A stretch of DNA of 64,000 bases from Eledone cirrhosa (taxonomy: Eukaryota), in assembly GCA_964016885.1 (NCBI GenBank), contig OZ024741.1, positions 285,696,001 to 285,760,000 on the forward strand, read 5' to 3'. The first letter of the stretch is position 1, and the number at the start of each line of letters is the position of its first letter. Both the position numbers and the translations under genes were made by a program. This document shows positions 1 to 61,769 of the stretch, piece after piece. The notes under the pieces are model-generated. The model was not told the DNA's origin, made no database searches, and worked only from the letters and a program-made list of their open reading frames with translations.

Positions 1-72
1 GAGAGATATGGGAGAGAGAAAAATAGTGAGGAGGTGACGTCAAATTTATTTATAAAACTGCTTATATATTGT

Positions 73-135
73 ATTTTATCTGAAGAAGGCATGCCATATT
101 TTTAATATGGTATCCCTGAAATATGTATAATGAAA
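73..135 (+). ncRNA. Minimal type-I hammerhead ribozyme in 5' pLTR of PLE1
   Basis: CTGAAGA (80-86), stem II AGG..CCATATT/AATATGG..CCT, GAAA (118-121), TATG-TA with GUA site. Confidence 0.8.
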
Positions 136-317
136 TAAATATGGTTTTATAAATATAGTTTCCATTTGTTTAATATCGTATATCTACTCCAAAACTTGTT
201 GAGTGCTTTATATCAGTTATAAAATATTTACTCGTTGTAACCCAACAATTTTAAATAAAACTTTTGCATATATTTTGCTCCAATACTGTTGAGCGCTTTA
301 TATTATAACTGAAAAAA

Positions 318-2530
318 ATGGAATTCTTTAAGATATCTTCTTCTCTAAAAGACATACCTCTACCTAAGAACAAAGACTTTATTAAACAATTAATAGAAAA
401 ATCAGACTCTTTTATAAGAAGAATCAGGTGGCGTGCCTTCCACTTTGATAAATCTAATCTAAATGAAAATGTCTCAGACTTAGATAAAGTTTTCAAATCT
501 AAAAAAAATCCACCCCCCAACAAACTTTTAATGGATTTTGAAAACGATATAATTTCTATCATACAAGGAGTCAAATTTAAGAGAAACTTCAAAGGCCAGG
601 AATATCTAAAAAGCATTAAGGATAATATTGAAAACTTAGAGAGAACAGAGAAGATCTTGGTGAAATCGGACAAAACCAACAACCTCTATGGAGTGCAAAA
701 AGACATGTATAATGGCCTTATACTGAAAGAACTAAGGAAAAAGTACAAAGTAGCAGATAAGGACGAACTGGAGAAAATGAATGCTGAGGCATCTTGTATA
801 ATGCATGAGTTGGAAATTGAGAACAAAACACAACCCTTCTTGCCTAGGAAACCCAAGATCAATATGAAATATCACAAAAGAAATTTTGAAAATGATTTGC
901 CAGTCAGATTAATTGCACCATCAAAATCTGACCTGGGTAAACTTAGCAAAAACATTCTAGACAGGGTGATACAGCAGGTTAAAAACTTACATGGTTTACC
1001 TAACTTAAACTTGTGGAAGGGAACTGGTGAGGTTATTGAGTGGTTTAAAGAAATTAAATATAACAAAAATAATAAATTTATTCAACTAGATATTGCTAAC
1101 TACTATTCATCTATTACCCCTAATCTACTAAATAAGGCACTAAATTACGCATTCAAACATACAGACCTAACTAGCAATGAAATGCACATTATATTATCGG
1201 CAAGGAAAACATTGATAGAATTTAATAACCAACTATAGACTAGGGCAGATAGAGATAATAATTTCGACATTACTATGGGATCATCTGACTCAGCTCAGGT
1301 AACGGACCTTGTGGGCCTATTTATAATTAATTCGCTACATAGAAAAATACCTGGTGTAACCGGAGGATTATATCGTGATGACATGCTTTTACTTATTGAA
1401 AATAATAACTCTGAACTAAATAGGAAAAGAAAACAAATTATACAATTTTTTAATTACCATAATCTAAAAATAGAAATAGAGAATAACCATAGAATAGTCA
1501 ATTTCCTAGATGTAACACTAAATCTCAACACATGTCTTCACTGTCCTTTTCACAAACTAAATGAAAACTTGAATTATGTCAGTTTTAACTCTAATCACCC
1601 CAGATCTGTTAAAAATACTATAGATATATACGTATCTCAAGAATTTCATCTAATAAAAATATTTTCGACGAAAAAGCGCAGTATTACAATGAAGCGTTAG
1701 CTAGAGCAGGATATAGTGATAAAATTATGTACATCGATAATAATAGGCAAACTAACCAATATAACAACAATTTTAATTACGGTAACAACTTTAACAACTA
1801 TAATAGAAAACATTACAATAATTCCAAAAGCCAGAAAAGAAATAGAACTAGAAATATAATATGGTTTGCACCCCCTTTCTCACTAAAGATTAAAACCCAC
1901 ATTGCTAAACTATTTTTTAATGCTCTTGACAAACGCTTCCCTAGAACACATAAATATCACTCAATTTTTAATAGACATACTATAAAATTAACTTACTCGT
2001 CCACCAAAAACTTAGCACAAAATATTAACAGAATAAATAATAGGAATCTAAAACCTAGCCAAAATACCGATAATAGCCTAAACAATATTCAACTAAACAA
2101 CTGTAACTGTAGAAATAAATCTAAATGTCCGTTAAATAACAATTGCTTAGTTAAAAATATAATATACAATTGTAATGTTAAAACTGACTTAAATTCTTTT
2201 AACTATGTTGGTTCCACCTCGACGGAATTTAAACTTCGCTATAATAATCATAAGAATTCTTTCACAGATCCAGGCAAAAAATCTTCAACATCACTATCAG
2301 GCTTACTCTGGCAACTTAAACATGATAACGTTGAATATTCGTTGTTTTGGAATATAGTCTCAAGAGGGATTCCTTTTAATTCCTCATCTGAGACATGTGA
2401 CCTCTGCGTGGAGGAGATATTCTTTATATTAAAATCTAAAAATTCCCTTAATCTAAGGAGCAATTTATTCAGTTGCTGCAGACATAGATTGAACTCAATG
2501 TTTAAATATAAATATAAATTTAAAATGTAG
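318..2530 (+). pseudogene. PLE reverse transcriptase + C-terminal GIY-YIG endonuclease, disrupted
   Basis: SDKTNNLY, RLIAPSK, LDIANYYSSI, MGSSDSAQ, GLYRDD, FLDVTL, CNC..CPL..C, IIY..YVGST, CDLC, CCRHR; TAG at 1236-1238 (likely a former Trp) and a frameshift near 1620. Confidence 0.93.
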
Positions 2531-3886
2531 TATATTTAGTTAAGATATTTATTTAATTAATTATGAAACATGACAATTAATCTTTCGATTCCTTCAACTT
2601 TTTCTTTTTTAAACCTTCTTCATAAATATATACTAATGATGTAATTAAACTACCCTTAAATGTTGATGCTCCCAATCTATTGAATAAATTTTACGCTAGA
2701 TAAACTTCTATACTAAATATAAGAGCATCTGTAGAACAACAGGGTCTCTTAAATCTTTTAAATGATTTCTGCTAAATAAGTCTTGTTGAATAATTTTGGT
2801 TTTTTGTTTGCTTTTGATTCTGATTGCTTCTAATGAACTTGGCAATGTATTGTCAGATAAATTGGAAGGGTTGATTTCTGTGGTTGATATGGGGGGCATA
2901 CTGTGTTTTTTAAAGCCCTAGACACTCTAGGGAGTGATGAAAGTATTCTTAGCGTTTTGATATATTGATATCTGTTGTCTATTCTATACATGAACGATAA
3001 TCATGTATGGTAGGGCAGGAATATTAATATTAATATATATTATATTTTTGTGTATGTGTATGTATGTATATATATATATATATATATATAGTAAAATCTT
3101 TTATAACGCAAGGGAAAATTTTTTCATGTGAAATGAGAAATTACAGAGCTGATCACGTATGCTCACGTGTATATCTATAGTGTCAACTAGAACTTGAGAT
3201 GACCTTCTCTTTTTCTTTTTCTTTCTTTTTCCGGAAAGTACATATATACTTATGTATTTTGAAGTTTTATCTCAGGTTTTTAATATATCGACCTAAGAAT
3301 TTTTAAACTAAACATATGGTCATTATTTTTCACACATTATATATCCATGTCTCATTCATGAATATTGATATCTACAGTATAATACCCAATTCATATAAAT
3401 TGATAATTCAAATTGATAGAACATAACGTAAAGTTGTAAATCTGTCATCTTTCTATCTAGATATAGCTTTCTTCTCCTCCCTCTATACATGATGTAATCT
3501 ATGTATCGCTGTTTTCTCTTTAGTTATTTTTTATTTTTCTCCGTCTCCTTAACACTATAACTAAATAAATAAATAAATAAATAATTACAGTACTCCCTCC
3601 CCCCTAAATCTCTCATTTTGCATGTTGAATTATTATTATTCATCTGTTACCTCAGCTGCCTCTCATTTTTCACCTCCTCACTATTTTTCTCTCTCCCATA
3701 TCTCTCTCTATCTCTCTCTCTGTTTTTCTTTACATACATTTACTCCTTCTCTCCGTCTTTCTTTTCTAACTGTGCTTAACACTAAATATTTACAAACATC
3801 TCACTACCAAACCAACTTTTTTAAATGGAAGTTGTTCAAAATTCTATGGTACGTCAAATTTATTTATAAAACTGCTTATATATTGT

Positions 3887-3950
3887 ATTTTATCTGAAGA
3901 AGGCATGCCATATTTTTAATATGGTATCCCTGAAATATGTATAATGAAAT
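3887..3950 (+). ncRNA. Hammerhead in 3' pLTR of PLE1
   Basis: Identical to 73-135; CTGAAGA 3894-3900, GAAA 3932-3935. Confidence 0.8.
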
Positions 3951-4078
3951 AAATATGGTTTTATAAATATAGTTTCCATTTGTTTAATATCGTATATCTA
4001 CTCCAAAACTTGTTGAGTGCTTTATATCAGTTATAAAATATTTACTCGTTGTAACCCAACAATTTTAAATAAAACTTT

Positions 4079-4081
<3 letters not shown>

Positions 4082-4138
<57 letters not shown>

Positions 4139-5203: not shown

Positions 5204-7331
5204 ATGCGAAAACACAACATCGACTTCTCCACCAAGAACATCCCAGTTCCAGCAAGACAACTTTACATTCGGATGCTCACGCAAAAAATCGATCTTTTTG
5301 CGAAAAAACTAAGATGGAGAACTTTGTTCTACGATAGATACCGCGACAATATGGACTTCGACACCAAGGAGGAGATTTGGATTCAATACCTACAAATCTC
5401 CCCCTCCGAACCCTATGCTGTTACCCTTCGAGAACGACCTTTTCCAGCTGGTCAAGAGCATTAAATTCAAACTGAGACACAACAGATTCCTACAACTCCG
5501 TAGTAAAATAACAGAGTATGAAAACACCAACGACATCATGGTGCACTCGGACAAAACTGGAAACCTCTACTTCGTTAACTCTGACAGATACCGCACACTG
5601 ATCAGGAGCAGCCTAAACTCCACCTATAAAAAGGCTAACCATTCAAATATCGTGGACATAAATCGAGATGGACAACAAATTACCTCCAGACTCGGGGTCG
5701 CCGACCGCACTGAATCCCTAGACCCACGTACTCCCTACTTCACACTGAAGGACCACAAATCCGACTTCGACCGCAAACCATCCATTAGGCTTATAAACCC
5801 AACGAAGTCGGACATAGGGAGAATAAGTAAAAAGATCCTAGACCGAGTTATACCAAAAGTTAAGCAAAACGTGAGACTTAGCTTATGGGTCAGCACCCAG
5901 GAAGTAATATCACGGTTCAGCAATATGGAGGACAAACGAGACAAAATTCATCCGGTTTGACATAGAGAGTTACTATGCATCTATTACCTTACCGCTCCTT
6001 ACGGCCGCCTTGGACTTTGCCGAAACACTCATGCCCATCACTGACCAGGAAAGAAATATCAATCTCCACGCCAGGAAGACAGTCCTACTTTTCGACAACT
6101 CCAAGTGGATAAAGAGAGCTCCAGACTCCCCCTTCTACGTCAGCCGAGGTCACAGATCTTATAGGATTATTCCTACTATTTAAACTCACCGAAATGTTTC
6201 CTGCATTTGGCGGTGGATTGTACCGGGATGTTGGGCTCCTTGCCCTCAAAGGGTACAACCCCAGTAGTACAGACCGGGTCCGTAAACAACTAATCAACTT
6301 CTTCCGGGACTGGGGATTTAAAATCACCCTACAAACGTCCCTAACCCGAGTCAATTTCCTGGACGTTACCCTTAACCTCGAAAATGCTCTGTACTACCCA
6401 TACAGGAAACCAAATGACAACCTGCACTACATCCACCGTCGCTCTAACCATCCTAGAAACATCACCAATAACCTGGTTAAAAACAGCTCCCTCCGCATAT
6501 CTCGTTTGTCCGCTAATGTGCAGATATTCGACGAACACGCGCCTCATTACAACCAGGCCCTCAAGCGGAGTGGCTTTCGGGAAGAAATATCCTTTTATCC
6601 AGCTTCCTTTAGCGGAACCAGCAGGCAACACCGCCGCTCACGCAACGTAACGTGGTTCAATCCTCCCCACAATGCCGAGGTGGCAGCACCTATCGGGAAA
6701 ATCTTCTTTAGACTCCTAAAAAAAAACTTCTCACTACAACACCGCTACCACAACATAATCAACAAAAACACCACCGAACTCTCCTACAGCACCAGACCTA
6801 ACTTCGCACAAAACATCGTCTCCTCAAACAACAAAAAACTCAACCCCTATGTAAGAAATAACCTAGACATCAGTGGACAGCCGACCAGGAGGTGTAACTG
6901 CCGTGATAGATCCACGTGCCCCCTCAACAACAAATGCCGAGAACGTAACGTGATCTACCAGTGCAACATGAGGACGGACAACTCCAACAAAGCTTATATA
7001 GGATTAACTGCGTGTGACTTCAAGACCTGGCTCTACCAACACCGACTCACTTTCCGAAACCCGGTCGGCGACATGCCACTACACTTTCGGGCCACATCTG
7101 GGACCTCCAAGATAACCATATAACCTACAATCTCACTTGGCGCTTACTGTCCAGAGCTAACTCTTACATGGGAGGGGCCGTCCGTGTCACTTATGCTCGG
7201 AGGAAACATTACAAATGCTGTTTTCGAAGGACCAACTCCTAAACTAGAAAGATGAACTGGTAACCGCATGCCAACACAGATTGCGTAGGACTTACCTCGC
7301 CCTCAAACCCTATAACGACCCGCGTGGGTAG
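5204..7331 (+). pseudogene. PLE RT + GIY-YIG, multiply frameshifted
   Basis: FSTKNIPVP, SDKTGNLY, LKDHK, RLINPTKS, GLYRDVG, FLDVTL, CNC..CPL..C, VIY..YIGLT, ACQHR. Confidence 0.9.
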
Positions 7332-9314: not shown

Positions 9315-9374
9315 TTTCATTCTGATGATTGAAAGCAATTTTTTTTGCTTTTAAGAAACCATTGGTAAATGAAA
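9315..9374 (+). ncRNA. Hammerhead in 5' pLTR of PLE3
   Basis: TTTCATT-CTGATGA-TTGAAAGCAA..TTGCTTTTAA-GAAA-CCATTGG-TA-AATGAAA; all three stems pair. Confidence 0.88.
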
Positions 9375-9587
9375 TAATTGCCTTATGTCGTTTATTACAT
9401 AACTATTAAGCTCTGTTACCTACATAGAGCACTCTTTTTTCCTGGACTTTTCCGACGAAATTACTTCATTTATACAGCTCCAACCGGGATTTATTGAAGT
9501 ATATTCTATATTACATATACGATTGGCACTTTCCAGCCCGATTAGTTGAGCACTCTACAGTTTTCAGGAATTTAACCAACATACACC

Positions 9588-11723
9588 ATGGACCTTTATG
9601 AATTGGATTATTCAATAAAAAATATACCTACTCCTCCCAACACAACTTATACCAAAATGCTTATAGATAAAATCCAACAAGTCGTTAAACGAATGAGATG
9701 GAAGGCAATGGTTTACGATGGACTATTCAGTGCTGATACTAATGATTGTTTTGACATAAAATCCCGTAAATATCCACCTAGAATTAAAAACATGGCCAAC
9801 TTCGAATTAGACCTTGTTAATTTAATTAGTGATATCAAATTTAGTAAGTACAATAATCATTTTCAAACTAAACTGTCTAACGATATTTTTAATTTTAAAA
9901 ATTCTACAAACACCTTTGTTCTTTCTGATAAAACTAAAAATCGCTTTGAAGTTAATAGTATTTTGTATAACCAACTTTTAACTAATAGTATCACCAACAA
10001 ATATCAATTAACTAATAATAATACCTACAATACTATTAATAAAGAAGCTAAAGGTCTAGCTAGTTCTTTAAAAATAGACAACCGGATTGAAAGCCTAGGT
10101 AAGCGTAAAGCATATATTACCCTTAAAGACCATAAATTAGACTTTACTAATCGACCTAGTTGTAGACTGATTAACCCGGCTAAATCCGAAGTTGGCCATG
10201 CAAGTAAAATAATCTTAAGAAAATAATTCTCCAAATTAGAACTAAGACTGACCTATCACAGTGGTTAAATACTTCCTCTTTTATTTCTTGGTTTAATAAT
10301 ATACAAGGTAAAAATAAGTATAGATTTACCCAATTTCATATTGTTGATTTTTACCCTCTATTACTGTTTCCTTATTAACTAATGCCTTAGAGTTTGCAAG
10401 ACTCTTCATTAATATTTCTAAATTAGAAGAAGACATTATCTTTCATGCTAGAAAAACTTTACTCTTTACTAATGAAAGTATTTGGGTTAAAAAGTCAAAC
10501 ACTGAAAACTCTTTTGATGTTGCAATAGGTTCATATGACAGTGCGGATGTGTGTGACTTAGTAGGATTATTCCTTCTCCACACCCTCAAAGAGAAATTTC
10601 CTTCCCAAAATATCGGTTTATACCGTGATGACGGATTGGCAGTTTCTCATACCACCAACGGCCATAACCGTGATAAATTCCGTAAAAATTTAATCAATAC
10701 TTTTGCTAATCTTAACCTTAAAATTACTATAGATACGAACCATACCAATGCTAACTTTCTTGACATTAATCTTGATCTACTTACCGCCTCTTTTAAACCT
10801 TATCATAAACCTAATGAAAATCTTAGATATATACACAAAGAGTCTTGCTATCCCCCTATAGTTTTAATAAATCTTATTCCCAACATTAGCCGTAGGATTT
10901 CTACCTTATCTACATCTCTAGACATTTTTAATAAAGCCGCCCCTTATTATAATAAAGCCCTTAATAACAGCGGTTTTACAGAACAAATTTATTATTTACC
11001 TACTCCCCCCCCCTAAAACTAACCACAATAATAGGAAAAGGAAAATTATTTAGTTTACACCCCCCCACCTTCTCTCTAACTGTCAAAACTAGTGTAGGAA
11101 GGAAATTCCTTGACCACTTAGATAAACATTTTCCTCCTAATCATAGACATTATGAGTTATTTAATAGAAATGTAGTTAAGATCAGTTACTCTTGTTGCCC
11201 ATCAATGAAGTCTAAGATCACTAATTCAAATCGTACGAGAACAAATCCAAGATGCAGTTGCAGGAAGCCGGATGAATGCCAATTACAGGGCAAATGTAAC
11301 ACCAAATCTGTTGTTTATGAGGACAAAGTGAGACCTTTAATCAACAACCAGCCAGCCAGGAGTGAGCGATATGTTGGCATGACCCAGGACAGGTTTAAAA
11401 CCAGGTTTTATGCACATGTCGTTTCTTTTAAGCACTCCGATGAACGAACAGCAGCGGCCCTCGCAATTAAGGTGTGGGAATTCAAGGATAAAAACATCCC
11501 GTACTCTATCGATTGCTCTATTTTAGACCATTCGAGGGAGTACCAAAGTGGCACAAAGAATTGTTCTTTGTGTACCACGGAAAAATATAGGATTTTGCTA
11601 AACTTGAAAGCCACTTCTGCTTGCCTGAACTCAAAGACCGAGATCTTCAGATGTTGTCCTCATCTGAAATCACATCTGATCTGTAACTGGATTGACATTC
11701 CTATGATAACTCAACCACCTTGA
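9588..11723 (+). pseudogene. PLE RT + GIY-YIG, disrupted
   Basis: YSIKNIPTP, RMRWKA, SDKT, LKDHK, RLINPAKS, GLYRDDGL, FLDINL, CSC..C..C, VVY..YVGMT, CSLC. Confidence 0.92.
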
Positions 11724-13167: not shown

Positions 13168-13474
13168 TATACACATATACACATATATACCTACACACAC
13201 ATACGTAAGCATACATACATACACACACACATATGTGATATGTATGTGTATGTATGTATGGATATGTATGTATGTATGTATATATATATATATATAAAGA
13301 ATGAATAATAACAGGTAGACATCATAAAAAGGTAATTTATTCCGTGTGCTTACAAATGTTTCCACGGTGGTACTGCAGCCTAGTTATGCTATGTGCAAAT
13401 TTACAAGTATTTGCAGAACAAATATCCAATGATCAAATCAGTTCCCCGGAGTATTTGCAGAACTCAAATATCCA

Positions 13475-14526
13475 TGATCAAATCACTTCCCCGGAGTATT
13501 TCTCTCAGAATCTCTCGCCTATCGTCTAACTCTGATATTTTTAGTGAACACGCTGAATACTACAATAATGCTTTAAGGAATGCCAACCACCGGGATACAA
13601 TGGAATACATTGATAGGAATTTCCATAACACACATAGCTCTACAAGAAATCAAGGAATACGTAACCGGGGGACTAAAATACAAGCGCATACACACAGTAC
13701 TACCAGACATACTAATAATAGAAAATCACCACCAAATAAATCACGTTGTAGAAAGTATATCTGGTACAATCCTATTTTTAATGCCTCGATTAGTACAGAA
13801 CTATCTCTTTCATTCTTTAAGTTAATCAACAAACATTTCCCTAGTTCCCATAAATACAGCAAAATTCTGAACTCTAAAACTATTAGACTATCATACTCCA
13901 CGGCACCAAACCTTGAAGCATACATAAAAAAACTTAACTTAAGGCAATTAAACAACTCTACAAAACAAAACATTTTAGTAACAGACGGGCAAAACGCAAT
14001 ATCTGCGCCCCAACCACTAAATGGGAGACGGGTATTGCGCAATCCACCTGTACCGCTATCACAACCTATCCATGGTATACCCGCTACCCACAACAAAGAA
14101 TGTAACTGCCATCTACCTGAAAGATGTCCATTGAAGAATGAATGCCTAAAGTCCAACATTGTTTACCAATGCACGGTTGAATCGAACGACCAGAAATGGT
14201 ATTATATCGGATCTACCACCAGCTCGTTTAAATCCCGCTGGTACCGTCATCGATTCTCAATCAAACATCCTAATCACCGTTTTGTGACCACGCTCGCCAA
14301 CAAGACCTGGCAACTCCGTGAACACAACCAACAGTTCACCTTAAAATGGGATATACTTTCCAGCGCAAGTGCATATCGGAGTGGATTGAAGTACTACAGG
14401 TTATGTAACCTTGAGCTCTTTTACATATTAAAATCCCAAAACAAACTACTTAACGATAGAATTGAACGATCATTATACTGCAACCACAAACTAAAAGCTA
14501 AATTCTCTCACTATAAAATAACTTAA
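13475..14526 (+). pseudogene. C-terminal PLE RT thumb + GIY-YIG endonuclease
   Basis: RISRLSSN, IWYNPIF, LSYSTAPN, CNC..CPL..C, IVY..YIGST, YCNH; the ORF-track start at 13393 lies in the inverted pLTR and is artefactual. Confidence 0.88.
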
Positions 14527-16213: not shown

Positions 16214-16274
16214 TTTCATTCTGATGATTGAAAGCAACATTTTTTTGCTTTTAAGAAACAACTGGTAAATGAAA
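16214..16274 (+). ncRNA. Hammerhead in 3' pLTR of PLE3
   Basis: CTGATGA 16221-16227, GAAA 16255-16258, GTA 16265-16267. Confidence 0.82.
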
Positions 16275-17040: not shown

Positions 17041-17235
17041 ACAATATTAAATAAATGGAAACTATATTTATAAAACCATATTTATTTCATTATATATATT
17101 TCGGGGATATCATATTAACAATATGCTATGCCTTCCTCAGACAAAATACAATATAAACAGTTTTATAGATAAATAGATTCGACATACCGTTATAACACCG
17201 ACTTCCATTTGAAGAGGTTTAAGCTGCCAGCTTAA
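17041..17235 (-). mobile_element. Solo pLTR fragment of PLE1 family with hammerhead (core 17134-17140)
   Basis: Reverse complement matches 40-180; CTGAGGA-AGGCAT..ATCCCC-GAAA-TATA-TA. Confidence 0.8.
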
Positions 17236-18706: not shown

Positions 18707-19237
18707 ATTTCGTTTCTGAATTTGTTTAGCAAGATTCTTTATCTGAAATCGTGTGTTGAAACCGATATTGTTATACTTTGGAGGGTCATGTTGCCAATAA
18801 GAAACACACGCACCAGTTGCTTTCACTTCAATTTAATTTAATATATATTTATAAATTTACAAATTTATAAATTTCTGGTTGGTTGGTTGGTTCCACAACC
18901 AGATAGTTGTTTATATATATATAGTCATAGTTCTTTCGTCACACACTCTGTGACCTCTTCAGTGACTGGGGATTTCTTTCTTCGTTTTTTTTTTACACAC
19001 ACACACACACACAGAAACGAAGAAAGAAATCCCCAGTCACTGAAGAGGTCACAGAGTGTGTGACGAAAGAACTATGACTATATATATATAAACAACTATC
19101 TGGTTGTGGAACCAACCAACCAACCAGAAATTTATAAATTTGTAAATTATAAATATATATTAAATTAAATTGAAGTGAAAGCAACTGGTGCGTGTGTTTC
19201 TTATTGGCAACATGACCCTCCCAAAGTATAACAATAT
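18707..19237. mobile_element. Fold-back pLTR element related to PLE5, hammerheads at 18923-18967 (-) and 19035-19079 (+)
   Basis: Arms 18765-18988 and 19015-19237; AGTCA-CTGAAGA-GGTCACA..TGTGAC-GAAA-GAAC-TA-TGACT; terminus shared with 54392. Confidence 0.88.
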
Positions 19238-37911: not shown

Positions 37912-38354
37912 GTAAAAGTTCTATTTAAATTGTTGGGATACAACAAGCAAATATTTTTATAACTGATATAAAGCACTCAACAAATATTTGGAGTAAAAAT
38001 ACGATATTAACAAATGGAAACTATATTTATAAAACCATATTTATTTCATTATACATATTTCAAGGACACCAAGTTAAATTATGGTGTGCTTCATCAGATA
38101 AAATATAATATAGATCACTTTTATAAATAAATATTGACATAACCTTTAATTATAATTAAAGCTACAACTCCACTATCCAGGAGCTTCCAACAGCAATGGT
38201 TGCATTCTTTAAGGGTATGTCAATATTTATTTATAAAACTGATCTATATCATATTTTATCTGATGAAGCACACCATGATTTAACTTGGTCTCCTTGAAAT
38301 ATGTATAATGAAATAAATATGGTTTTATAAATATAGTTTCCATTTGTTAATATC

Positions 38355-38357: not shown

Positions 38358-38428
<71 letters not shown>

Positions 38429-38431
<3 letters not shown>

Positions 38432-38705
38432 GGAGGTGAGTTTTATTGTAGTACAATAAAGCAATGCAGACATCGGATAAGTAGCACTCTACAGTTTGTT
38501 GGACTGGAGTATAAATAGTATATAAGATCAAAAGATGGTTAAAAGAGTTCCATGTATTTTATTATGCGCATTTCAAAAACAAATATCATCATGCAATAAC
38601 ATTTGCGTTTTCGTCAGACGAAAACGCAAATGTTATTGCATGATGATATTTGTTTTTGAAATGCGCATAATAAAATACATGGAACTCTTTTAACCACCTT
38701 TTGAT

Positions 38706-38710
<5 letters not shown>
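38429..38710. mobile_element. Fold-back pLTR whose inversion axis lies in the hammerhead core
   Basis: Palindrome 38520-38710 centred on TCGTC-A-GACGA (38616); same family as 45441-46670. Confidence 0.82.
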
Positions 38711-38789: not shown

Positions 38790-39815
<1,026 letters not shown>

Positions 39816-40684
39816 ATATATATATATATATATATATGTAGGAGGTGAGTTTTATATATATATATGTAGGAGGTGAGTTTTATATATATATATATATACA
39901 AAGTCATTTATGGAATGTTTCATAAAAATATAGTAATGATAAATCGAAAGCAACAATCAATACCCATGAATAGAGTTTCAAATGTATATTTTGAATATAA
40001 CTTAAAATTTGGCGCCTGTTGATTCATAATTTGTTGAGGATTTGGAATGGTCGTAAGTCATTAAAAATGCATGAATTGATCACTGATCTAGCTAGATTAA
40101 CCTTGATTGCCAAGCAAACCTGCACTGAATACACAATTCGAGATAAATAAGAAAATATTGCCATAATATAGAAGCAGTTTTAATGGATGGTCACGAAATA
40201 TTCGATCGAATTTGAAATATAGAAGAATCGGTAAGAAATTCAATAGCAACTGTTATATATCCATAGAATATTTCCTCGTTTTACTTATCTGTGTTTCGAC
40301 GGTTTTACAGTATACAAACTAGCAATCAAAGCTTTGCATCTGTGTGTATTCGTCGTTTTAACAACATTTTTCATCTCAGTCTGCAGATCAATGACTCTCT
40401 CTCAATCAATTTGTTTATGTATTTATTCAAAATTCCAGTTCTAAAGAAAGATTCTTTAACACATGGTGCCTTTTTAAAAGTATCTGAACATATACTGGGG
40501 AAAGTTTACTTCCTTGGTGGGGGTCTCTTTCTATTCATCTTTGAATTAGGTCCCTTGCTCCTTGAGCCCAGCCCCCTCCCACTGATCAAAGCGCACCTAA
40601 AATACAATGTAATACTCATACAAACCGATATCTAACTTTTCTTACCCTGTGTAAATATGCATATGTCTGTGTAAAGTCTGTCTT

Positions 40685-44835: not shown

Positions 44836-45440
44836 TATATATATATATATATATATATAAGAAAGACGTAAAATAAGAAAATTATAAAAATTAAATTACT
44901 TACTAAAATTTCACTCCAACTAATTAGTTTCTGAAAGGGAATAAACATGGTTTCCGAATGGAACACATGGAGAATGCCTTTCGTCATCAGGAAGTCAATT
45001 CTCAGCTAAGTTCCCAGGCGATGCGTGGACACAGGGAACTTATACAAAAATAATTCAGTGGATGGAAAAAAGCAAGCGTGGACTAAATTCAAAGACATTG
45101 AAAAAATCACTGCCTACTTGGTCGGTGGCAAATTCAAAAGAATCAATCACGTGACATCGAGGTTAATCAGTGAGGAGCGGGTGTTAAGAAGTCAGTAGCC
45201 GAACTATTACTATGAACTATAGTAGCAGTTTTGGCAAATTTTTGCTCAACAAAATAATTTGGAGATAATTATAAAGAATTAGTATATCTACCAACATGTA
45301 TATACAGATGCATACCTATGCTAGCAAATATAGGTTTTGTCTTAGTAACTTTGTGGTTCAATGCAAGTGGATGCAGAACAATTATATGAAAGACGTAAAA
45401 TAAGAAAATTATAAAAATTAACTTACTTACTATATATATT

Positions 45441-46665
45441 TGTAGGAGGTGAGTTTTATTGTAGCACAATAAAGCAATGCAAATATCGGATAAGTAGCAC
45501 TCCACAGTTTATAGGACTGGAGTATAAATAATATAAGATCAAAAGATGGTTAAAAGAGTCCCAAGTATTTTATTACGCGCATTTCAAAAACAAATATCAT
45601 CATGGGATGATAAAGGCTTTTATATCTATTACTAATATACCCATCTTTCTACCTTATTTCAGTATATTATATCATAAAATTTACTCATTCTATGTCGTTA
45701 GAGGTCCCTTATCTTTCTTCTTTTATCCTTTTTCTCATTTTCCCCCCTTTTTTTTTAAATTTCTAATCTTTAATCTGTAACTTTTACTCCCCAGTTACTT
45801 CTCAATTCATATTATTACTCACTACTGCATTTTCCATTTTTCCAATTTTCCTCATATTATTGGCCATAGAAACTATATTTTATAATATATAATAATATAA
45901 CATTAGAACATTTTTGTTAACATATATACCTTTTGACGTTAGATATTTTTTCTTCCTTAAATTCTCTTTTTTCTTCTCTCCTTCCGTGCTCGTTTTAAAC
46001 CTATTATTTACTTTTACATATTACAATACATAAAAACAAACTTAAACCCTAACTAATTTATCTAAGTTCATAATTCTTTTATTCTTCTCCTTCTTTCACA
46101 TTAATATCATTAATATTTTAATTTTAATAATACATATTAATAAATTATTTTTTTCGCACATATTATTAAACCCTTCAATATATTAATACTATTCTTACTA
46201 TTCTTAATTCCTTTTTCATAAACATCAACATCCATAAACCTCATTAACTTTTAATTTCAAAATTCTTTTTAAATTATCTATTATCTTCCAAAGGTTTTTT
46301 AATTTATCTCTGTGAGACAATGTTTTCTCAGTTGTAAAGGCTATTTCTCTCTCTCTCTATCACTCATTTCTCCTCCTCTCTCATCCTTCCTTCTTATACT
46401 CCTCCCGCACCATCCTTTATTTTCTTTCTTCCTCTTCCTTACCTTTTCCTAGCCCACCCCCTCCTTTTTTTTCCCAATCTCTTATATCCATCTTACTTTA
46501 TTTTTCATATGTTGATTTAAAACTTCACTGCTCACAAGTGTTTTTTAAGCTTCATATGTTTCACTATTTTATCTGATGAGAACGCAAATATCATCCCATG
46601 ATGATATTTGTTTTTGAAATGCGCATAATAAAATACTTGGAACTCTTTTAACCATCTTTTGATCT

Positions 46666-52557: not shown

Positions 52558-52904
52558 ATACTTTGGGAGGGTCATGTTGCCAATAAGAAACACACGCAAC
52601 AATATCGGTTTCAACACACGATTTCAGATAAAGAATCTTGCTAAACAAATTCAGAAATGAAATATATATATATATTGTTAATCGGCTCAGTATTTATTTG
52701 TACTTTATACTTAGAGCTTAATGGTTACAGGGTTCTAATTCTCATATATATATTTCTGCTCCCTTACAAGTTGAGCTATTAAGTTGTGCGTGTTGGACTG
52801 TTATTTCTGTTCAATACGCTCTTACCCCGTTTGACTGGCGAAGCACGAGGTGATGAATTCATCTTTCTGTGTTGGCAAATAGTGTTTGTGGCATTTAATC
52901 GCAA

Positions 52905-52984
52905 TCTCTCGCTGATGAAGCCCAGGATTATCTGTTACAAACACACTCAGGGCGAAACAGATTAGGCATAATCTGTCCGAGAGA
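52905..52984 (+). ncRNA. Well-formed type-I hammerhead in a PLE 3' remnant
   Basis: TCTCTCG-CTGATGA-AGCCC..GGGC-GAAA-CAGATTA..TAATCTG-TC-CGAGAGA. Confidence 0.9.
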
Positions 52985-53134
52985 TATAATGGTTATTGAG
53001 GCGGTTTGTATTATTATGATAATATATTTTTATTTTCATTTTGTCATTCTGTCTGTTTCTTGGTTAAATATTTCAAGCATATGTGGTTTTTCAACCCTTG
53101 TAATTTTAGACACACGGTTTACTGTGTTTCTTAC

Positions 53135-54391: not shown

Positions 54392-56956
54392 ATTGTTATA
54401 CTTGGGGAGGGTCATATTGTAATAATAATATTGCCAGAAATAAAAACAGAACACACTCACTGTTTGGTTGGTTTTCGCTTCTGTATCTTTTATATCTCCA
54501 TAGTTAATTTATTCGGCCTTTAATGTTTATCATTGATTGAACAACATTCAAAAATACAGATATAAATACATATATATAGTCTAACAAAGTTCTTTCGTTA
54601 CACATCTGCAACATCATCAGTGGTACTATTATGTTTCCTCCTGCTGTATTGTATGTCTACGCCATTTTATTTTATCTGTTTATGCGTTTGCGTTTGCGCG
54701 TGTGTGCATCGTGGTTGGTTTGTGTGTTCGCGCTTGGGTGACTGTGTTTTGGTTCTTGTATTCTATCTTAGTTTATTAGTGTGTGTTTATATGTGTTTGT
54801 TGTTATTGTGCTTGTGTGTATATTTATTTATTTATTTATTTATATTTCTCTTAAGTCAGTATGGTTTGTTTGGGACTGGTTGTTGTTATTCCATTGATTT
54901 TTTCTGTTTTAGCTTTGGGTTTCTAAGCTCTATTTCTCTGATTTGCCTACCTGTTGGGTCATTTCTATGTTTAGATATTATTTTAATTTCTATGTTGTCT
55001 ATGTTACCGTCATGTTGTTGTCTGGCGTGTTCGTATAGTACTGAACCCTATTTTTGTCCTTATAATTCCCCCCAGTGTTGATCTATTCTTTCTCCTATGC
55101 TTCGAGCTGTCTCACCTATGTATGTTGTTGTCATGTTTCTGCAAGTACCCTCTGTACATCTTATGCTATAGACTACATTTCTAGTTTTACAGTTTATCCG
55201 GGGGTTTACTTTACATATAACACATTTCTTATAACAACATTCCCTATCTTATGTTTAGTCCTATCTAAGTTATTCCGTGATTTGCTCCTGTATAATAGGC
55301 AAATTCCTTTCATGTCCAGTTCTATGAGGGTCTTATACTTCTCCGTGGTTCCTTTGTATATTCTGTCTCTTTGGTTGTAGCCAGAGAACTGCATGCGATT
55401 GATGAAGTGTTGGATGTGTCTTTCCATTTCTGTTGGATCGCATATGCGGGAGACGTTCTTCATCACTCTACCAAGTCTGCGATCAGAATATTAAACTTTA
55501 GCACTACTGGATATTGCTGTGTTTTTGAGTATCAGGTATTTGGAGGCCATGGGTTTAGTGTAGTGTGAGTGGAGAATTTGGGCCCTCTCGTCTATAGTGT
55601 TAATCCAGAGTTCCGTGTCTGTTACAGGTAGTCTATTGTTAAGGTGTTTGGAAGAGTAGTCAATAGTTACAGTTATACTCTGGTGTTTGGAGTTAGCTAT
55701 CTGCTGGATGCTTTCCATTGTGCTACATTCTAAATCATGTTCGTTAGTACTCTCTTGTGGGAGTGTCTTTATTACTATATTAATATAGTCTACGTAACGA
55801 GAGCACTTATGAGGTTTATGGAGCTCTCTTCAAGATCTTTGAGTCTCCTTTCCCACCATACCATAAAAAGGTTGGCAACATCACCAGCTATGCTGACGCC
55901 AATGGCTGTGCCCTCATTTTGGGTGTAGATCTTTTCATCGAATTTGAATATATGGCCCTTTAGGATAGTTTTAATACTAGCCTTTATTGCATGCGCGACC
56001 ATGTTTCTCACCTAATCATTGGTTTGGGGTGTCCGTATGGCTTTTGTCCACCCAATCCACCTTCCCATTGGAGTCCTTTTAGTCATTGAGGTTATGGTGT
56101 GTGTGGGGGTGGGGGTCTACCTCTTATGGGTCTACTGGGGCAGAAATGGCTGTCTGGGTACTCGGTGTCATAAGTAAGTCTAAGTAGGAGGCCCAGTTCA
56201 TCTGTGTCGACGTCGCTGATTATTTCTACACATTTTTCCACAGCAAAATCAATGTTAATGGATGGGTACATTGATACCACGTCCATACTGCCTACTATGC
56301 AGTTAGATAGGGTTTTGTTTTTGTTGCACTCATTGATTCTGCTGAGGAGGTCCTCTCTACTGTCACATATATCTGGAGACATCTTAAGTATGGGGCGTAT
56401 AACCATTGAGAGGAAGTAGGAGATCCTGTAGTTACTAGCGATATTGGATCCGTATACAGGTCTTGTTGGAGGTCCTGTTGTCGGGTCGTCGACTGTAGTA
56501 TGGTCCTTGCGGAGCCCATAGAAGGGTGGTATGTCGTTGTTAGACGCTTGGAAGTTGTTGGCAGTGCGTCTGCATAGCTTTAGGATGTCAGTGCACACCG
56601 TCATGTCAGCGTTGAGGATCTTCTCTCTCCCCTCATGTGTTTGTTGTGTAATTTCGCTCGTGTTGGTGATGTGGGGTTGCATAGACTTGATGTAGTTCGG
56701 CATTCTGTCTATCGACATATTACCAGATTTATCTGTGGGTAGAGACAATACCTCACCATCCCTTGTGCGTTGCTCGAGGATAACTAAGCCTTCTACAGGT
56801 TCCATTCCAAGCTGTTGAACCTCTGGTCTGCTTTTTCCCTTAGTATATCGGTCTACTATTCGTCTAATTTTATTTCTAGCTATGGTGAACTGTGCCTCTG
56901 TCTCGTCATCTATTTGCTCTGGTATACAAACCCTATTATTAAAAAATAACTTAGCT
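54392..56956 (-). mobile_element. Penelope-like element 5 (non-Naiad; Neptune/Nematis-like), decayed RT + GIY-YIG, with pLTR hammerhead at 54577-54628
   Basis: PTDKSG, PFYGLRKDH, PPTRPV, SMDVVSMYPSI, QNEGTAIG..ANLFMVWW, FSGY, NVVYSI.C..YIGETARS; CTGATGA-TGTTGCA..TGTAAC-GAAA-GAAC. Confidence 0.85.
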
Positions 56957-57439
56957 ATATATATATATATATATGTATGCACGTATATATATATGCATTG
57001 TCTTTAATGGGAAATATAAAATTTTATTGTATAAAAATTACTAACTGAAACATATTTCAGGTAATATTTTTTTTGAAAATCATTATTTGACTTTAAGAAT
57101 TGACTTCTCTTAATTAATTTGGGGTGGGTAAGTAACGATGAAGTATCTAATTCCTGTTTTTGAGATAAGAAACAATAGAAATTGATAGAAAATACAATAG
57201 ATATATTTGAATGAAATGGAAATAAAAGGAAAAAAGAATCGGGCCTTTGATATTATAGATCAAATGAGAGGAACTCTATTAATTAGTGTTTGAGATAAAA
57301 CTTCAATTTAATTAATTCAGAAAAATATAAATATATTTAAATAATAAAAACCTGAGCGACAAGTAACATCTAATTTATCTCATATATTATCAGATAGTAT
57401 ATATTAGGTGGATGAAAGAATGGTATTTAACTAATGTAT

Positions 57440-58030: not shown

Positions 58031-58050
58031 AAATATTATATATATATATA

Positions 58051-60219
58051 TTGGAATAAATGCTCTGAAATAGCGATATATATGTGAATATAGACATAGA
58101 ATATTCGAAAATATTCTGTATGTTTATAATAAACATTTTGAAGACCTAATCGCTATAGAATAGAATACGTCACGTATTACAATTAGATTCTCGATAAAAG
58201 CAAGGGAAGTAATCTACGCGTTTCATTCTTGTTAGAAATCATCAGGACTACATATCCAGTGCTTTTATCGAGAATGACACAGCTAGAGACTTATAGAATA
58301 CTTAGCTGTGTACAGGAACTGGTTTGAAAGAGCGGTTGCCGGTCCGGCAGAAATTAGAAATTGGAATAAATGCTCTGAAATAGCGATATATATGTGAATA
58401 TAGACATAGAATATTCGAAAATATTCTGTATGTTTATAATAAACATTTTGAAGACCTAATCGCTATAGAATAGAATACGTCACGTATTACAATTAGATTC
58501 TCGATAAAAGCAAGGGAAGTAATCTACGCGTTTCATTCTTGTTAGAAATCATCAGGACTACATATCCAGTGCTTTTATCGAGAATGACACAGCTAGAGAC
58601 TTATAGAATACTTAGCTGTGTACAGGAACTGGTTTGAAAGAGCGGTTGCCGGTCCGGCAGAAATTAGAAATTGGAATAAATGCTCTGAAATAGCGATATA
58701 TATGTGAATATAGACATAGAATATTCGAAAATATTCTGTATGTTTATAATAAACATTTTGAAGACCTAATCGCTATAGAATAGAATACGTCACGTATTAC
58801 AATTAGATTCTCGATAAAAGCAAGGGAAGTAATCTACGCGTTTCATTCTTGTTAGAAATCATCAGGACTACATATCCAGTGCTTTTATCGAGAATGACAC
58901 AGCTAGAGACTTATAGAATACTTAGCTGTGTACAGGAACTGGTTTGAAAGAGCGGTTGCCGGTCCGGCAGAAATTAGAAATTGGAATAAATGCTCTGAAA
59001 TAGCGATATATATGTGAATATAGACATAGAATATTCGAAAATATTCTGTATGTTTATAATAAACATTTTGAAGACCTAATCGCTATAGAATAGAATACGT
59101 CACGTATTACAATTAGATTCTCGATAAAAGCAAGGGAAGTAATCTACGCGTTTCATTCTTGTTAGAAATCATCAGGACTACATATCCAGTGCTTTTATCG
59201 AGAATGACACAGCTAGAGACTTATAGAATACTTAGCTGTGTACAGGAACTGGTTTGAAAGAGCGGTTGCCGGTCCGGCAGAAATTAGAAATTGGAATAAA
59301 TGCTCTGAAATAGCGATATATATGTGAATATAGACATAGAATATTCGAAAATATTCTGTATGTTTATAATAAACATTTTGAAGACCTAATCGCTATAGAA
59401 TAGAATACGTCACGTATTACAATTAGATTCTCGATAAAAGCAAGGGAAGTAATCTACGCGTTTCATTCTTGTTAGAAATCATCAGGACTACATATCCAGT
59501 GCTTTTATCGAGAATGACACAGCTAGAGACTTATAGAATACTTAGCTGGTACAGGAACTGGTTTGAAAGAGCGGTTGCCGGTCCGGCAGAAATTAGAAAT
59601 TGGAATAAATGCTCTGAAATAGCGATATATATGTGAATATAGACATAGAATATTCGAAAATATTCTGTATGTTTATAATAAACATTTTGAAGACCTAATC
59701 GCTATAGAATAGAATACGTCACGTATTACAATTAGATTCTCGATAAAAGCAAGGGAAGTAATCTACGCGTTTCATTCTTGTTAGAAATCATCAGGACTAC
59801 ATATCCAGTGCTTTTATCGAGAATGACACAGCTAGAGACTTATAGAATACTTAGCTGTGTACAGGAACTGGTTTGAAAGAGCGGTTGCCGGTCCGGCAGA
59901 AATTAGAAATTGGAATAAATGCTCTGAAATAGCGATATATATGTGAATATAGACATAGAATATTCGAAAATATTCTGTATGTTTATAATAAACATTTTGA
60001 AGACCTAATCGCTATAGAATAGAATACGTCACGTATTACAATTAGATTCTCGATAAAAGCAAGGGAAGTAATCTACGCGTTTCATTCTTGTTAGAAATCA
60101 TCAGGACTACATATCCAGTGCTTTTATCGAGAATGACACAGCTAGAGACTTATAGAATACTTAGCTGTGTACAGGAACTGGTTTGAAAGAGCGGTTGCCG
60201 GTCCGGCAGAAATTAGAAA
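58051..60219 (-). mobile_element. Retrozyme-like tandem array: 7 near-identical 310-bp monomers, each with a minimal hammerhead
   Basis: Units start at 58051, 58361, 58671, 58981, 59291, 59600 and 59910; HHRs at 58209-58251 through 60068-60110. Confidence 0.88.
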
Positions 60220-60660
60220 TTCTTTAATTTTTTCTTTCTAAAAATATTTTTTCTTTCTAATTTATCGTTACATTTTTATAAATATATCGAGATTGATACT
60301 TTTCTTTTAATTATTACACTCCCTTACCTCTTTTACTTCCGCATCTAAGTGTACGAGTGTGCAGGCGTTTTATGCGCGCACCTTCATATTCATATATTTA
60401 TGATGTAACTATTCTGTCTGTAGATTACAGACATATAGATACATTTGCCCTAAATTTTAGAATTTCGCACACTTTCTCACTATACGTATACATGTGTGCA
60501 TATACATATATGCACATCTGTGAGCGTATATACATACATATACACACACCTAACTATATTTCTTGATAGATTTTTATATATTTCAATTTCTATTTCATTT
60601 GTCTATATCTTTTTTTGATTTTCTTGATGAGTTTTTCTAAGTATTTACTCATGTTTTATA

Positions 60661-60736
60661 TTGCCTCGTCTGACGAACGAATGAAGTCGTTTATTTCGTA
60701 TTCGCCTCATTCGGGAAACCTCTGGTAATGAGGTAA
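60661..60736 (+). ncRNA. Hammerhead at end of PLE 3' remnant (60220-60760)
   Basis: TTGCCTCGT-CTGACGA-ACGAATGA..TCATTCGG-GAAA-CCTCTGG-TA-ATGAGGTAA. Confidence 0.85.
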
Positions 60737-60755
60737 TTATATTGTATTGGTTTTT

Positions 60756-61183: not shown

Positions 61184-61637
61184 GACCGCCGTCGTTTCCG
61201 ACGACATCTGCTCAAGTTGATACATGATTCCATCAACGGAACGTCCTACTTGTGAAGTTAACGTGTAGGGTCTAAGATTTCTACAGACACGTGCAAATTG
61301 AAGGTAGTACTCAGTGGAATTCAGCCTGATACAACGTGCCACAAGACTGGGACTTTTTCAGCTGACTCGATTGGAGCAATGTGAAATATATTGTCTTGCT
61401 CTAAGAAACAAGACACAGCACCGTCGACCATACTATCCGGAGCAAATTATAATTAGCGGAAGAGGTCAAGTTTTACAAGAAGTGGAGCTTACTTCATCTC
61501 TGGTTCTCATTTTACATTTTTTATTCTTATTTCCTCCCTTCCTTTTTCATCCTCTTTCTTCCTACCTGATTCGTCCATCTGCATTTACGACTCTACCACA
61601 AAATGACCATTTATATATGTAGAAATATATATATATA

Positions 61638-61686
61638 GATTCCTGATGATTTCTAATGAATGAAACAGTACTAGTCCTGTAGAATC
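61638..61686 (+). ncRNA. Hammerhead whose core and stem II resemble the retrozyme HHR
   Basis: GATTC-CTGATGA-TTTCTAATGAAT-GAAA-CAG..CTG-TA-GAATC. Confidence 0.85.
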
Positions 61687-61769
61687 TCATCTATATTAAA
61701 ACTTTTATACTCTGCTATGTATTGAGTACCTTACTTACTGTGGTTACCTCCGATTCAACCCGGAATAAC

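What the first reader, a model, noticed from the sequence alone, without database searches (positions are those of the whole stretch)
58051..60219. 310-nt hammerhead-bearing, viroid-like tandem repeat: candidate circular-RNA retrozyme family
Seen: seven almost identical non-coding 310-bp units (one has a 1-nt deletion). On the minus strand each unit has a minimal type-I hammerhead, GUAGUC-CUGAUGA-UUUCU(AACA)AGAAU-GAAA-CGCG-UA/GAUUAC, with the predicted cut between 58215 and 58214. Stem III is the palindrome ACGCGU. The rest of the monomer is densely self-complementary: a perfect 16-bp helix extending stem I (58187-58202/58260-58275), a UUCG-capped hairpin (58089-58128) inside 58070-58077/58149-58156, and further hairpins at 58164-58178, 58277-58311 and 58337-58349. 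Known: metazoan non-LTR retrozymes are tandem repeats of roughly 170-400 nt whose minimal HHRs cleave as dimers and yield circRNAs. Inference: array transcripts self-process into 310-nt monomers or circles, which are rolling-circle reverse transcribed by a PLE RT. I do not recognise this family as described.
Basis: partly seen in the sequence, partly recalled or inferred. Interest (0 to 1): 0.9.

Follow-up and report, generated by a model that had tools for sequence, protein, structure and literature searches.

The report
Ribozyme circles copied by Penelope enzymes
This is one of roughly 2,000 young, scattered insertions of a 310-base non-coding repeat carrying a predicted self-cutting ribozyme, and their shape (two back-to-back arrays with fixed outer ends, nearly always one sequence variant per insertion) suggests that each was likely copied from a single RNA circle by a Penelope-like jumping gene's enzyme.

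Summary
Observation confirmed: seven 310-bp units, each with a type I hammerhead on the minus strand.

It is a new family of animal non-LTR retrozymes, a known kind: 15,956 units, about 2,000 insertions. The added value is the insertion anatomy:
- Most insertions are back-to-back double arrays in (TA)n.
- 130 of 134 whole double arrays end at monomer position ~165 on one side and ~139 on the other, never the same on both. This is the Penelope-like (PLE) 'tail' signature.
- 102 of 104 insertions carry one haplotype in all units; both arms agree in 63 of 68 (chance 0.10).
- Inner ends are random, not piled at the ribozyme cut.

This fits two target strands each priming rolling-circle copying of one circular monomer. 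Inherited variants keep base pairs and are A>G-rich on the ribozyme strand. Older sister subfamilies show compensatory changes, including core C3-G8 to U3-A8.

Not shown: cleavage, expression, circles, or which PLE is the partner (three families tested, none homologous). One ribozyme-less tandem derivative and in vitro literature argue that the ribozyme may be dispensable for insertion.

The parts
58050..60221 (-). Retrozyme array, 7.0 units of 310 bp (six whole cut-to-cut monomers). Single-armed insertion whose 3' (tail) end is at 58050 and whose 5' end (monomer position 163) is at 60221. No inverted arm and no target-site duplication seen by eye.
58209..58251 (-). Type I hammerhead, first copy: stem I 6 bp, core C3-A9, U.U at 10.1/11.1, stem II 4 bp with loop AACA, GAAA, palindromic stem III, GUA triplet. 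Six more copies end at 58561, 58871, 59181, 59491, 59800 and 60110.
58214..58215 (-). Predicted self-cleavage site (monomer position 310|1)
   Evidence: position inferred from hammerhead numbering
58187..58275 (-). Rod carrying the ribozyme: 16-bp helix 58187-58202/58260-58275 plus a 3-bp helix extending stem I; conserved by compensatory change in sister subfamilies
58290..58466 (-). Module shared with sister subfamilies (monomer 59-235, 75-80% identical): two hairpins in a closing helix, both array-end sites and about 70 nt downstream. Inferred binding and start region for the reverse transcriptase.
58050..58075 (-). 'Tail' (monomer 140-165): the stretch between the two fixed array ends
58037..58049 (.). 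(TA)n target run abutting the tail end
38891..39709 (-). Second, older insertion of the family (312-bp units, 95.5% identical), long arm, tail-less end in (TA)n. Stem I keeps pairing through two changes.
39704..39813 (+). Inverted short arm of the second insertion (monomer 55-164), ending with the tail in (TA)n

Best explanation
This is a young, non-coding retrozyme family whose tandem transcripts are predicted to cut themselves into 310-nt monomers that likely close into circles, and each genomic insertion was likely written from one such circle by a Penelope-like element (PLE) protein. Shown by the sequence: dispersed insertions in (TA)n; two back-to-back arms; one outer end at monomer ~165 and the other at ~139; random inner ends joined by 0-6 nt microhomology or short inserts; one haplotype per insertion; structure-preserving inheritance on the ribozyme strand. 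Inferred: two neighbouring hammerheads pair through the palindromic stem III and cut, and a host ligase closes the monomer. A PLE protein binds module 59-235 and nicks both strands of a (TA)n target. Each 3' end primes at one of two start sites 26-35 nt apart. Each reverse transcriptase rolls round the circle for about 1.3-1.6 kb on average and stops at random, and the two cDNAs are then joined end to end.
For: Dispersal: 15,956 units, control 0, about 2,070 insertions. End rule: 130 of 134 whole double arrays have one tail end and one tail-less end, none has two alike, and 4 have another far end. For loci picked by one end only: 47 of 50 whole ones picked by the tail, and 14 of 20 picked by the tail-less end, are such double arrays; the rest are single arms. 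Two adjacent internal start sites, cutting and extension of both strands, and AT-rich targets are the in vitro behaviour of a PLE (PMC11167929). An inverted 5'-truncated copy with a tail at one end is the PLE genomic hallmark (PMC8557442). A Hydra-type PLE family in this genome shows two fixed ends of its own and opposed copies at several loci. Monomer bottleneck: 42 haplotypes in 104 insertions, fixed in every unit in 102 of 104; both arms alike in 63 of 68, chance 0.10. Haplotypes seen only once are fixed across up to 22 units. Inner ends are uniform (chi-square p 0.48; 5 of 180 near the cut against 4.1 expected), and no unit-specific indel lies at the cut junction. Selection on RNA structure: inherited variants keep:break pairs 13:7, unit-specific ones 9:43, p 3e-4. 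Across 22 copies of three subfamilies, 21 of 30 pairs change on both sides, and 0 of 500 shuffles reach the covariation score. The core 3-8 pair is U-A in 52, C-G in 3 and mismatched in 4 of 59 sister copies. Strand bias: A>G makes up 21 of 63 inherited changes against 10 of 108 unit-specific ones, p 1.5e-4.
Against: No cleavage, RNA or circle was observed. No autonomous PLE with a homologous terminal repeat was found among three families and 816 kb of fetched sequence. In vitro, PLE insertion did not need ribozyme cleavage (PMC11167929), and only 1 of 9 Xenopus retrozyme dimers cleaved (bioRxiv 2026.07.22.740005). One 163-bp sister derivative without a ribozyme is also tandem and tail-ended. 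L079 has the same two-haplotype order in both arms, which fits a linear mosaic template or a nested insertion better than one circle. Absence of inherited changes in the 12 core bases (0 of 44 substitutions, against 3 of 108 unit-specific) is not significant by itself (about 1.7 expected). Identical arms could come from a clonal RNA pool rather than one molecule. The window's own array is single-armed. The covariation controls do not correct for relatedness.
Confidence: 0.72

Rival explanations
1. Same PLE-driven insertion, but the template is an uncut linear multimer transcript of a parent array. The ribozyme is slow or serves another step, and no circle is copied.
For: Unprocessed RNA was the dominant PLE substrate in vitro. 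8 of 9 Xenopus dimers did not cleave. U.U at the base of stem II. Mixed arrays L079, L058 and L253. Ribozyme-less 163-bp tandem.
Against: A mutation arises in one unit, so linear copying should pass on mosaics. Instead 102 of 104 insertions are fixed for one of 42 haplotypes, and only 6 minority occurrences of known variants were seen. The ribozyme fold is kept by compensatory change over three subfamilies. No array among those mapped runs on into a parent's flank or inverted junction as a regular feature.
Confidence: 0.17
2. The template is the cut linear monomer, and the enzyme jumps from its 5' end back onto a 3' end again and again.
For: Gives the same monomer bottleneck. End-to-end jumping is known for other retroelement enzymes (recalled, no call).
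Against: Arms should often stop at the cut and junctions should be ragged. Only 5 of 180 inner ends lie within 3 nt of the cut (4.1 expected), and none of the 15 unit-specific indels among 796 units is at the junction.
Confidence: 0.05
3. The arrays are truncated insertions of an autonomous PLE whose terminal repeat is tandemly repeated, not a separate non-autonomous family.
For: All PLE end marks are present. An earlier scan note (e1-7908855) reached this verdict for a look-alike in another genome.
Against: In the mapped loci the unit runs only into itself, into the inverted arm or into target DNA, including arrays of up to 30 units. PLE-protein hits near module copies are partial fragments and none joins a module as its terminal repeat. 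No ORF of 130 aa or more overlaps the array.
Confidence: 0.04
4. Satellite DNA spread and homogenised at the DNA level (unequal crossover, extrachromosomal circles), with the ribozyme a relic.
For: Some local block duplication exists (two variants in 6 of 29 units of L071). The 2026 preprint proposes local amplification by unequal crossover.
Against: It cannot give fixed 139/165 ends, one of each per insertion, (TA)n targeting (114 of 130 with 6 nt or more of TA on both sides), strand-biased A>G inheritance, or pair-keeping variants.
Confidence: 0.02

Closest known systems
Animal non-LTR retrozymes (Cervera and de la Pena 2020, PMC7229834: coral, mussel, axolotl)
   Same: Non-coding tandem units of 150-450 bp, one type I hammerhead each, low GC, highly self-paired, many copies, PLEs in the same genome. 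Axolotl HHR_Amex2 also has U.U at the base of stem II; HHR_Amex1 also has a one-pair stem III with a palindromic tetraloop; both cut better as dimers.
   Different: No sequence relation was tested or found. The main text has no mention of 'inverted', 'tail' or 'microsatellite' (supplement not readable), so the double-array anatomy and fixed ends are not described there. Cleavage and circles were shown there, not here.
Retrozymes as non-autonomous PLE derivatives (Li, Clavereau, Pollet, bioRxiv 10.64898/2026.07.22.740005)
   Same: Same conclusion that PLEs are the partners.
   Different: Their evidence is co-occurrence and terminal-repeat homology, and they invoke local tandem amplification. 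They do not use insertion ends. Here the evidence is insertion anatomy and haplotypes, and terminal-repeat homology was not found.
Endonuclease-positive Penelope-like elements (Poseidon PAc, PMC11167929; Naiad/Hydra, PMC8557442; Adineta Penelope, PMC3846280)
   Same: Inverted 5'-truncated copy, tail at one end, AT-rich or (TA)n targets, two adjacent internal start sites, need for RNA downstream of the start sites.
   Different: No ORF. Both arms are multimers of one short unit (both exceed one full extra round in 77 of 130). The tail is 26-35 nt.
Hammerhead viroids and viroid-like satellite RNAs (recalled, plus review passages PMC7761336)
   Same: Size, rod-like folding, hammerhead processing of multimers.
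   Different: Ribozyme on one strand only; thousands of DNA copies made by reverse transcription; no evidence of RNA-to-RNA replication.

Membership tests
Animal non-LTR retrozyme | Tandem units of about 150-450 bp, each with a type I hammerhead | tested here: met
   310 bp, 7 of 7 units carry it
Animal non-LTR retrozyme | Non-coding, GC below 50% | tested here: met
   No ORF of 130 aa or more over the array; GC 106 of 310 nt
Animal non-LTR retrozyme | No LTR, primer-binding site or polypurine tract | tested here: inconclusive
   No LTR-plus-internal layout in the mapped loci; primer-binding site and polypurine tract not searched
Animal non-LTR retrozyme | Many dispersed copies, PLEs in the same genome | tested here: met
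   15,956 units; three PLE families with 150 of 150 scored hits each
Animal non-LTR retrozyme | Highly self-paired monomer | tested here: met
   z -4.3 circular, -4.4 linear
Animal non-LTR retrozyme | Target-site duplication longer than 4 bp when present | tested here: inconclusive
   One clear 14-bp duplication (L034); the others are hidden in TA repeats
Animal non-LTR retrozyme | Self-cleavage of transcripts | not testable with these tools
   Needs in vitro transcription
Animal non-LTR retrozyme | Accumulation as circular RNA | not testable with these tools
   Needs northern blot, RNase R or raw RNA reads
Canonical metazoan type I hammerhead | Conserved core; helix I 6 bp, II 4 bp, III 1-2 bp with palindromic loop | tested here: met
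   definition in PMC4209133
Canonical metazoan type I hammerhead | G10.1-C11.1 pair | tested here: not met
   U.U here; A-U in 11 of 42 haplotypes; U.U has a precedent in HHR_Amex2
Canonical metazoan type I hammerhead | Loop 1-loop 2 tertiary contact | tested here: inconclusive
   A U follows stem I and loop 2 ends in A (G in common haplotypes); only compared by eye with the abstract of PMC2632901
Rfam hammerhead families | Gathering score | tested here: not met
   19.2 bits against 52, Hammerhead_HH9
PLE 'minimal' hammerhead | Helix III absent | tested here: not met
   Palindromic helix III present; definitions
PLE-type insertion | Inverted 5'-truncated copy at the 5' end | tested here: met
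   47 of 50 whole loci picked by the tail end
PLE-type insertion | Tail at only one end | tested here: met
   130 of 134 whole double arrays
PLE-type insertion | AT-rich or microsatellite target | tested here: met
   114 of 130 with 6 nt or more of TA on both sides; one side was selected for in most loci
Non-autonomous derivative of a named PLE | Homology to the terminal repeat of an autonomous PLE | tested here: inconclusive
   None in 70 loci of three families or in 816 kb of fetched sequence; the genome holds many more PLE families
Viroid / viroid-like RNA | Ribozymes in both polarities and no DNA phase | tested here: not met
   Minus strand only; genomic DNA copies

The most novel reading that the evidence does not exclude
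Each insertion records one RNA circle being rolled by both active sites of a Penelope-like dimer, one start site per cut DNA strand. A-to-I edits made on the folded circle are written into the germline, so a viroid-like lineage evolves largely at the RNA level while living in DNA. The ~2,000 insertions would be a natural read-out of the unresolved PLE cycle and of heritable RNA editing.
Probability: 0.35. Interest if true: 0.85.

Novelty: new member of a known kind. Interest (0 to 1): 0.62.

Why it matters
How animal retrozymes move is open. The founding paper proposes PLEs and circular templates from co-occurrence, and the 2026 preprint adds terminal-repeat homology but leaves the life cycle untested and invokes local DNA amplification.

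This family is young enough (unit-specific changes 6e-4 per base) that insertion anatomy still shows the mechanism: PLE start sites, one per strand, and a monomer-length template.

It gives a 310-nt substrate with mapped start sites for testing three things: rolling-circle reverse transcription by a PLE protein, how PLE inverted repeats and one-sided tails arise, and whether RNA editing feeds back into the genome.

Tried and rejected
DNA search of the own genome with the whole unit returned nothing, because very common words are skipped; patterns were used instead.

Expression: no RNA holder listed, which says nothing either way. Four runs of unknown kind were laid on one unit. X2 holds 597 contigs at very high summed depth. 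X1, X3 and X6 (three other organism codes) each hold one 340-nt cyclic contig, identical to the unit, at depth 10-15. A tandem DNA repeat also assembles as a cycle, and trace carry-over of a 16,000-copy repeat would look like this, so it is not used as evidence for circles or for transfer.

Partner search:
- A loose-end motif had no match.
- Two patterns excluding the main family returned only sister subfamilies in the 60 loci read.
- A module profile found no PLE terminal repeat.
- Clustering 194 other hammerhead hits gave no partner.

Pfam and PDB searches did not recognise the window's PLE proteins; they were assigned by motifs described in PMC8557442 and an Atlas lead.

Lock-step copying by a rigid dimer is rejected: only 10 of 130 arm pairs are within 60 nt in length, and rho is 0.20 in young insertions. 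Fold-back copying of the first cDNA is disfavoured because the second arm has its own fixed end.

Editing was not separated from selection for G.U pairs: A>G against C>T gives p 0.065.

The host was not identified; 'octopus' in my paper searches was a guess from recalled repeat look-alikes, tested by no call. Scan notes held nothing for this genome or sequence.

Full report
OBSERVATION. The window holds 7.0 copies of a 310-bp unit at 58050-60221, identical except for one 1-nt deletion. Each unit carries a minus-strand type I hammerhead whose predicted cut is 58215|58214. The monomer folds far better than shuffles (z -4.4), though the plus strand does too. Stem II is 4 bp over a U.U pair, and stem III is one pair closing a palindromic loop, so it would need a neighbouring copy to form. 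This is the canonical animal layout (PMC4209133 passages) with precedents in axolotl (PMC7229834). Rfam support is weak (19.2 bits, gathering 52). Monomer numbering below starts after the cut, on the ribozyme strand.

COPY NUMBER. The genome is 3.0 Gb. An exact 31-mer of the ribozyme occurs 4,587 times and a less variable 26-mer 15,956 times, with reversed controls at 0. That is about 4.9 Mb and, from mean insertion size, about 2,070 insertions. A second, 95.5%-identical insertion lies in the same window at 38891-39813.

INSERTION ANATOMY. I mapped 152 stretches (150 fetched from contigs C1 and C2, plus the two window arrays).
- Shape: most insertions are two arrays back to back, ribozyme strands pointing outwards. 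Of 134 double arrays seen whole, 130 end at about 165 (163-173) on one side and about 139 on the other. Four have some other far end, and none has two alike. Six more were cut by the edge of the stretch. There are 13 whole single arms, the window's among them, and 3 cut ones.
- Selection bias: some early loci were fetched because both ends were already listed, so the cleaner sets are those picked by one end. Of 53 picked by the tail, 47 were double arrays with a tail-less far end, 3 single, 3 cut. Of 20 picked by the tail-less end, 14 were double with a tail at the far end and 6 single. Of 11 mapped pieces from the ribozyme pattern, 7 were double with one end of each kind, 1 single, 3 cut.
- Ends: the tail-less end falls in an AT run and can be placed at about 130-139, so the tail is 26-35 nt. 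Both flanks start with 6 nt or more of TA in 114 of 130. One non-TA locus shows a 14-bp duplication (L034). Genome-wide, 1,143 and 131 tail ends abut TA directly.
- Inner ends are uniform round the unit (p 0.48; 5 of 180 within 3 nt of the cut, 4.1 expected). Of 90 junctions resolved, 60 are direct, with microhomology of 2 nt or more in 36 (null 20%), and 30 have inserted or unassigned bases.
- Arm lengths average 1.3-1.6 kb in young insertions and are only weakly correlated.

WHY THIS POINTS TO A PLE. A purified PLE cuts and extends both strands of AT-rich DNA and starts at two adjacent internal RNA sites that define the genomic tail. It also needs RNA downstream of them (PMC11167929, main text). 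Inverted 5'-truncated copies with a tail at one end and (TA)n targets are PLE hallmarks (PMC8557442 and PMC3846280 passages). The genome is rich in PLEs with long open frames. The family at window 38-4083 has the RW(K/R) and DKT motifs of the Hydra clade and shows two fixed ends of its own, 87 nt apart, with opposed copies at several loci. No partner with a homologous terminal repeat was found, so the enzyme's identity is open.

WHY A MONOMER TEMPLATE. Among 104 insertions with two or more whole units (796 units) there are 42 haplotypes. In 102 the defining variants are in every unit. Both arms agree in 63 of 68, against a chance level of 0.10; three of the five exceptions are single-unit arms differing by one base. 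Haplotypes seen only once are fixed across up to 22 units. A new variant must therefore pass through a one-unit bottleneck before being multiplied into both inverted arms. A circle does this. Jumping on a cut linear monomer would too, but predicts stops and scars at the cut, which are not seen. The data cannot tell one molecule from a clonal pool. The exceptions are L058 and L253, where an A>G change appears part-way along the arms, and L079, where both arms begin with two units of one haplotype and continue with another.

SELECTION AND STRAND. Inherited variants keep:break predicted pairs 13:7, unit-specific ones 9:43 (p 3e-4). In the ribozyme they fall at N7, in loop 2, at 10.1 (U.U to A-U, 11 haplotypes) and as pair-keeping stem I changes. 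None of 44 is in the 12 core bases, against 3 of 108 unit-specific ones, which alone is not significant. On a spanning tree rooted in the oldest haplotype, A>G is 21 of 63 changes against 10 of 108 unit-specific (p 1.5e-4; against T>C p 0.002; against C>T p 0.065), recurring at 20, 276, 259 and 118, each after a U. Either A-to-I editing of the template or tolerance of G.U pairs explains this. Both mean that the ribozyme-strand RNA is the template. PMC7229834 raised editing only as a possible source of circle heterogeneity.

SISTER SUBFAMILIES. Older relatives of about 320 nt and somewhat longer share positions 59-235 at 75-80% and the same end sites (1,713 hits for one 17-mer). Their core 3-8 pair is U-A in 52 of 59 parsed copies, C-G in 3 and mismatched in 4; U3-A8 is a known natural variant. 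Over 22 aligned copies, 21 of 30 pairs of rod, stem I, stem II and core change on both sides. None of 500 shuffles reaches the covariation score, and slid controls pair 39-48% of cells against 88%; relatedness is not corrected. The module's hairpins also covary (4 of 20 pairs). Against the need for a ribozyme: one 163-bp derivative lacks it yet is tandem and tail-ended.

MECHANISM (0.72). Tandem transcript; dimeric hammerhead cleavage and host ligation (inferred from PMC7229834); PLE protein bound at module 59-235; nicks on both strands of (TA)n; one start site per strand; rolling-circle synthesis with random stops; microhomology joining of the two cDNAs. Rivals: uncut linear multimer template 0.17, jumping on linear monomers 0.05, truncated autonomous PLE 0.04, DNA-level satellite 0.02.

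NOVELTY. The kind is known. I found no description of double arrays, fixed tail ends or single-haplotype arms for retrozymes in eight searches of the held library or by term search in the two key papers. Their supplements were not seen (bioRxiv supplements closed) and most subscription papers are not held, so this is a limited negative.

What I saw of each paper: PMC7229834 parts 2-4 of 6; bioRxiv 2026.07.22.740005 parts 1-3 of 5; PMC11167929 parts 1-2 of 4; passages of PMC8557442, PMC3846280, PMC4209133, PMC7761336 and PMC13282606; abstract of PMC2632901. An unchecked scan note reports similar PLE-type ends on a tRNA-like tandem repeat in another genome, so the anatomy may be general for PLE parasites.

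VERDICT. New member of a known kind, with unusually clear genomic evidence on an open mechanism. Interest 0.62.

Noticed in passing
window 38-4083 (+): Near full-length Hydra-type PLE: broken reverse transcriptase plus endonuclease frames at 309-2530, terminal repeats with hammerheads at 72-137 and 3886-3951, ending in (TA)n. The family has many copies 91-98% identical, some with ~750-aa open frames, and two fixed ends 87 nt apart.
   Followed up: partly
window 5313-7123, 9576-11723, 13384-14526 (+), 56092-57003 (-): Further PLE-like coding fragments of other families; used only as queries.
   Followed up: partly
window 9315-9374, 16214-16274, 17083-17148, 18923-19079, 38042-38315, 44913-44995, 46565-46635, 52904-52985, 60660-60737, 61637-61687: Ten more places with type I hammerhead motifs, two of them inverted pairs; they belong to several recurring families in the fetched loci. 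The one at 61637 shares stem II letters with the array's ribozyme.
   Followed up: partly
window 38526-38710 and 38420-38445 / 39825-39893: A near-perfect palindrome of about 170 bp next to the second array, and a ~28-bp TA-led sequence repeated on both sides of the whole composite, possibly a target duplication of nested insertions.
   Followed up: no
L271:2317-2953: Ribozyme-less 163-bp derivative of a sister subfamily: four tandem units ending in the tail and (TA)n. One position alternates between units, as if a dimeric template had been copied round.
   Followed up: partly
L175:3059-4357, L085, L093, L132, L151: Another abundant hammerhead-bearing tandem family of about 425 nt, with opposed copies and a similar two-hairpin-then-AT-run end region: a second retrozyme family in this genome.
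   Followed up: partly
G000, hits: A PLE family with dozens of equal-scoring copies, open frames up to ~900 aa and many inverted pairs, so probably very young; its 3' end shows no homology to the module.
   Followed up: partly
L058, L253, L079: Arrays that switch haplotype part-way: A>G switches in L058 and L253; the same two-then-other order in both arms of L079. Unexplained.
   Followed up: partly
L071: Array of 30 or more units with two variants shared by 6 of 29 units: local duplication after insertion or an assembly effect.
   Followed up: no
runs X1, X3, X6 on window 58061-58370: Three runs under other organism codes each hold one exact cyclic contig of the unit at depth 10-15; kind of run unknown; trace carry-over is the simplest reading.
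   Followed up: no
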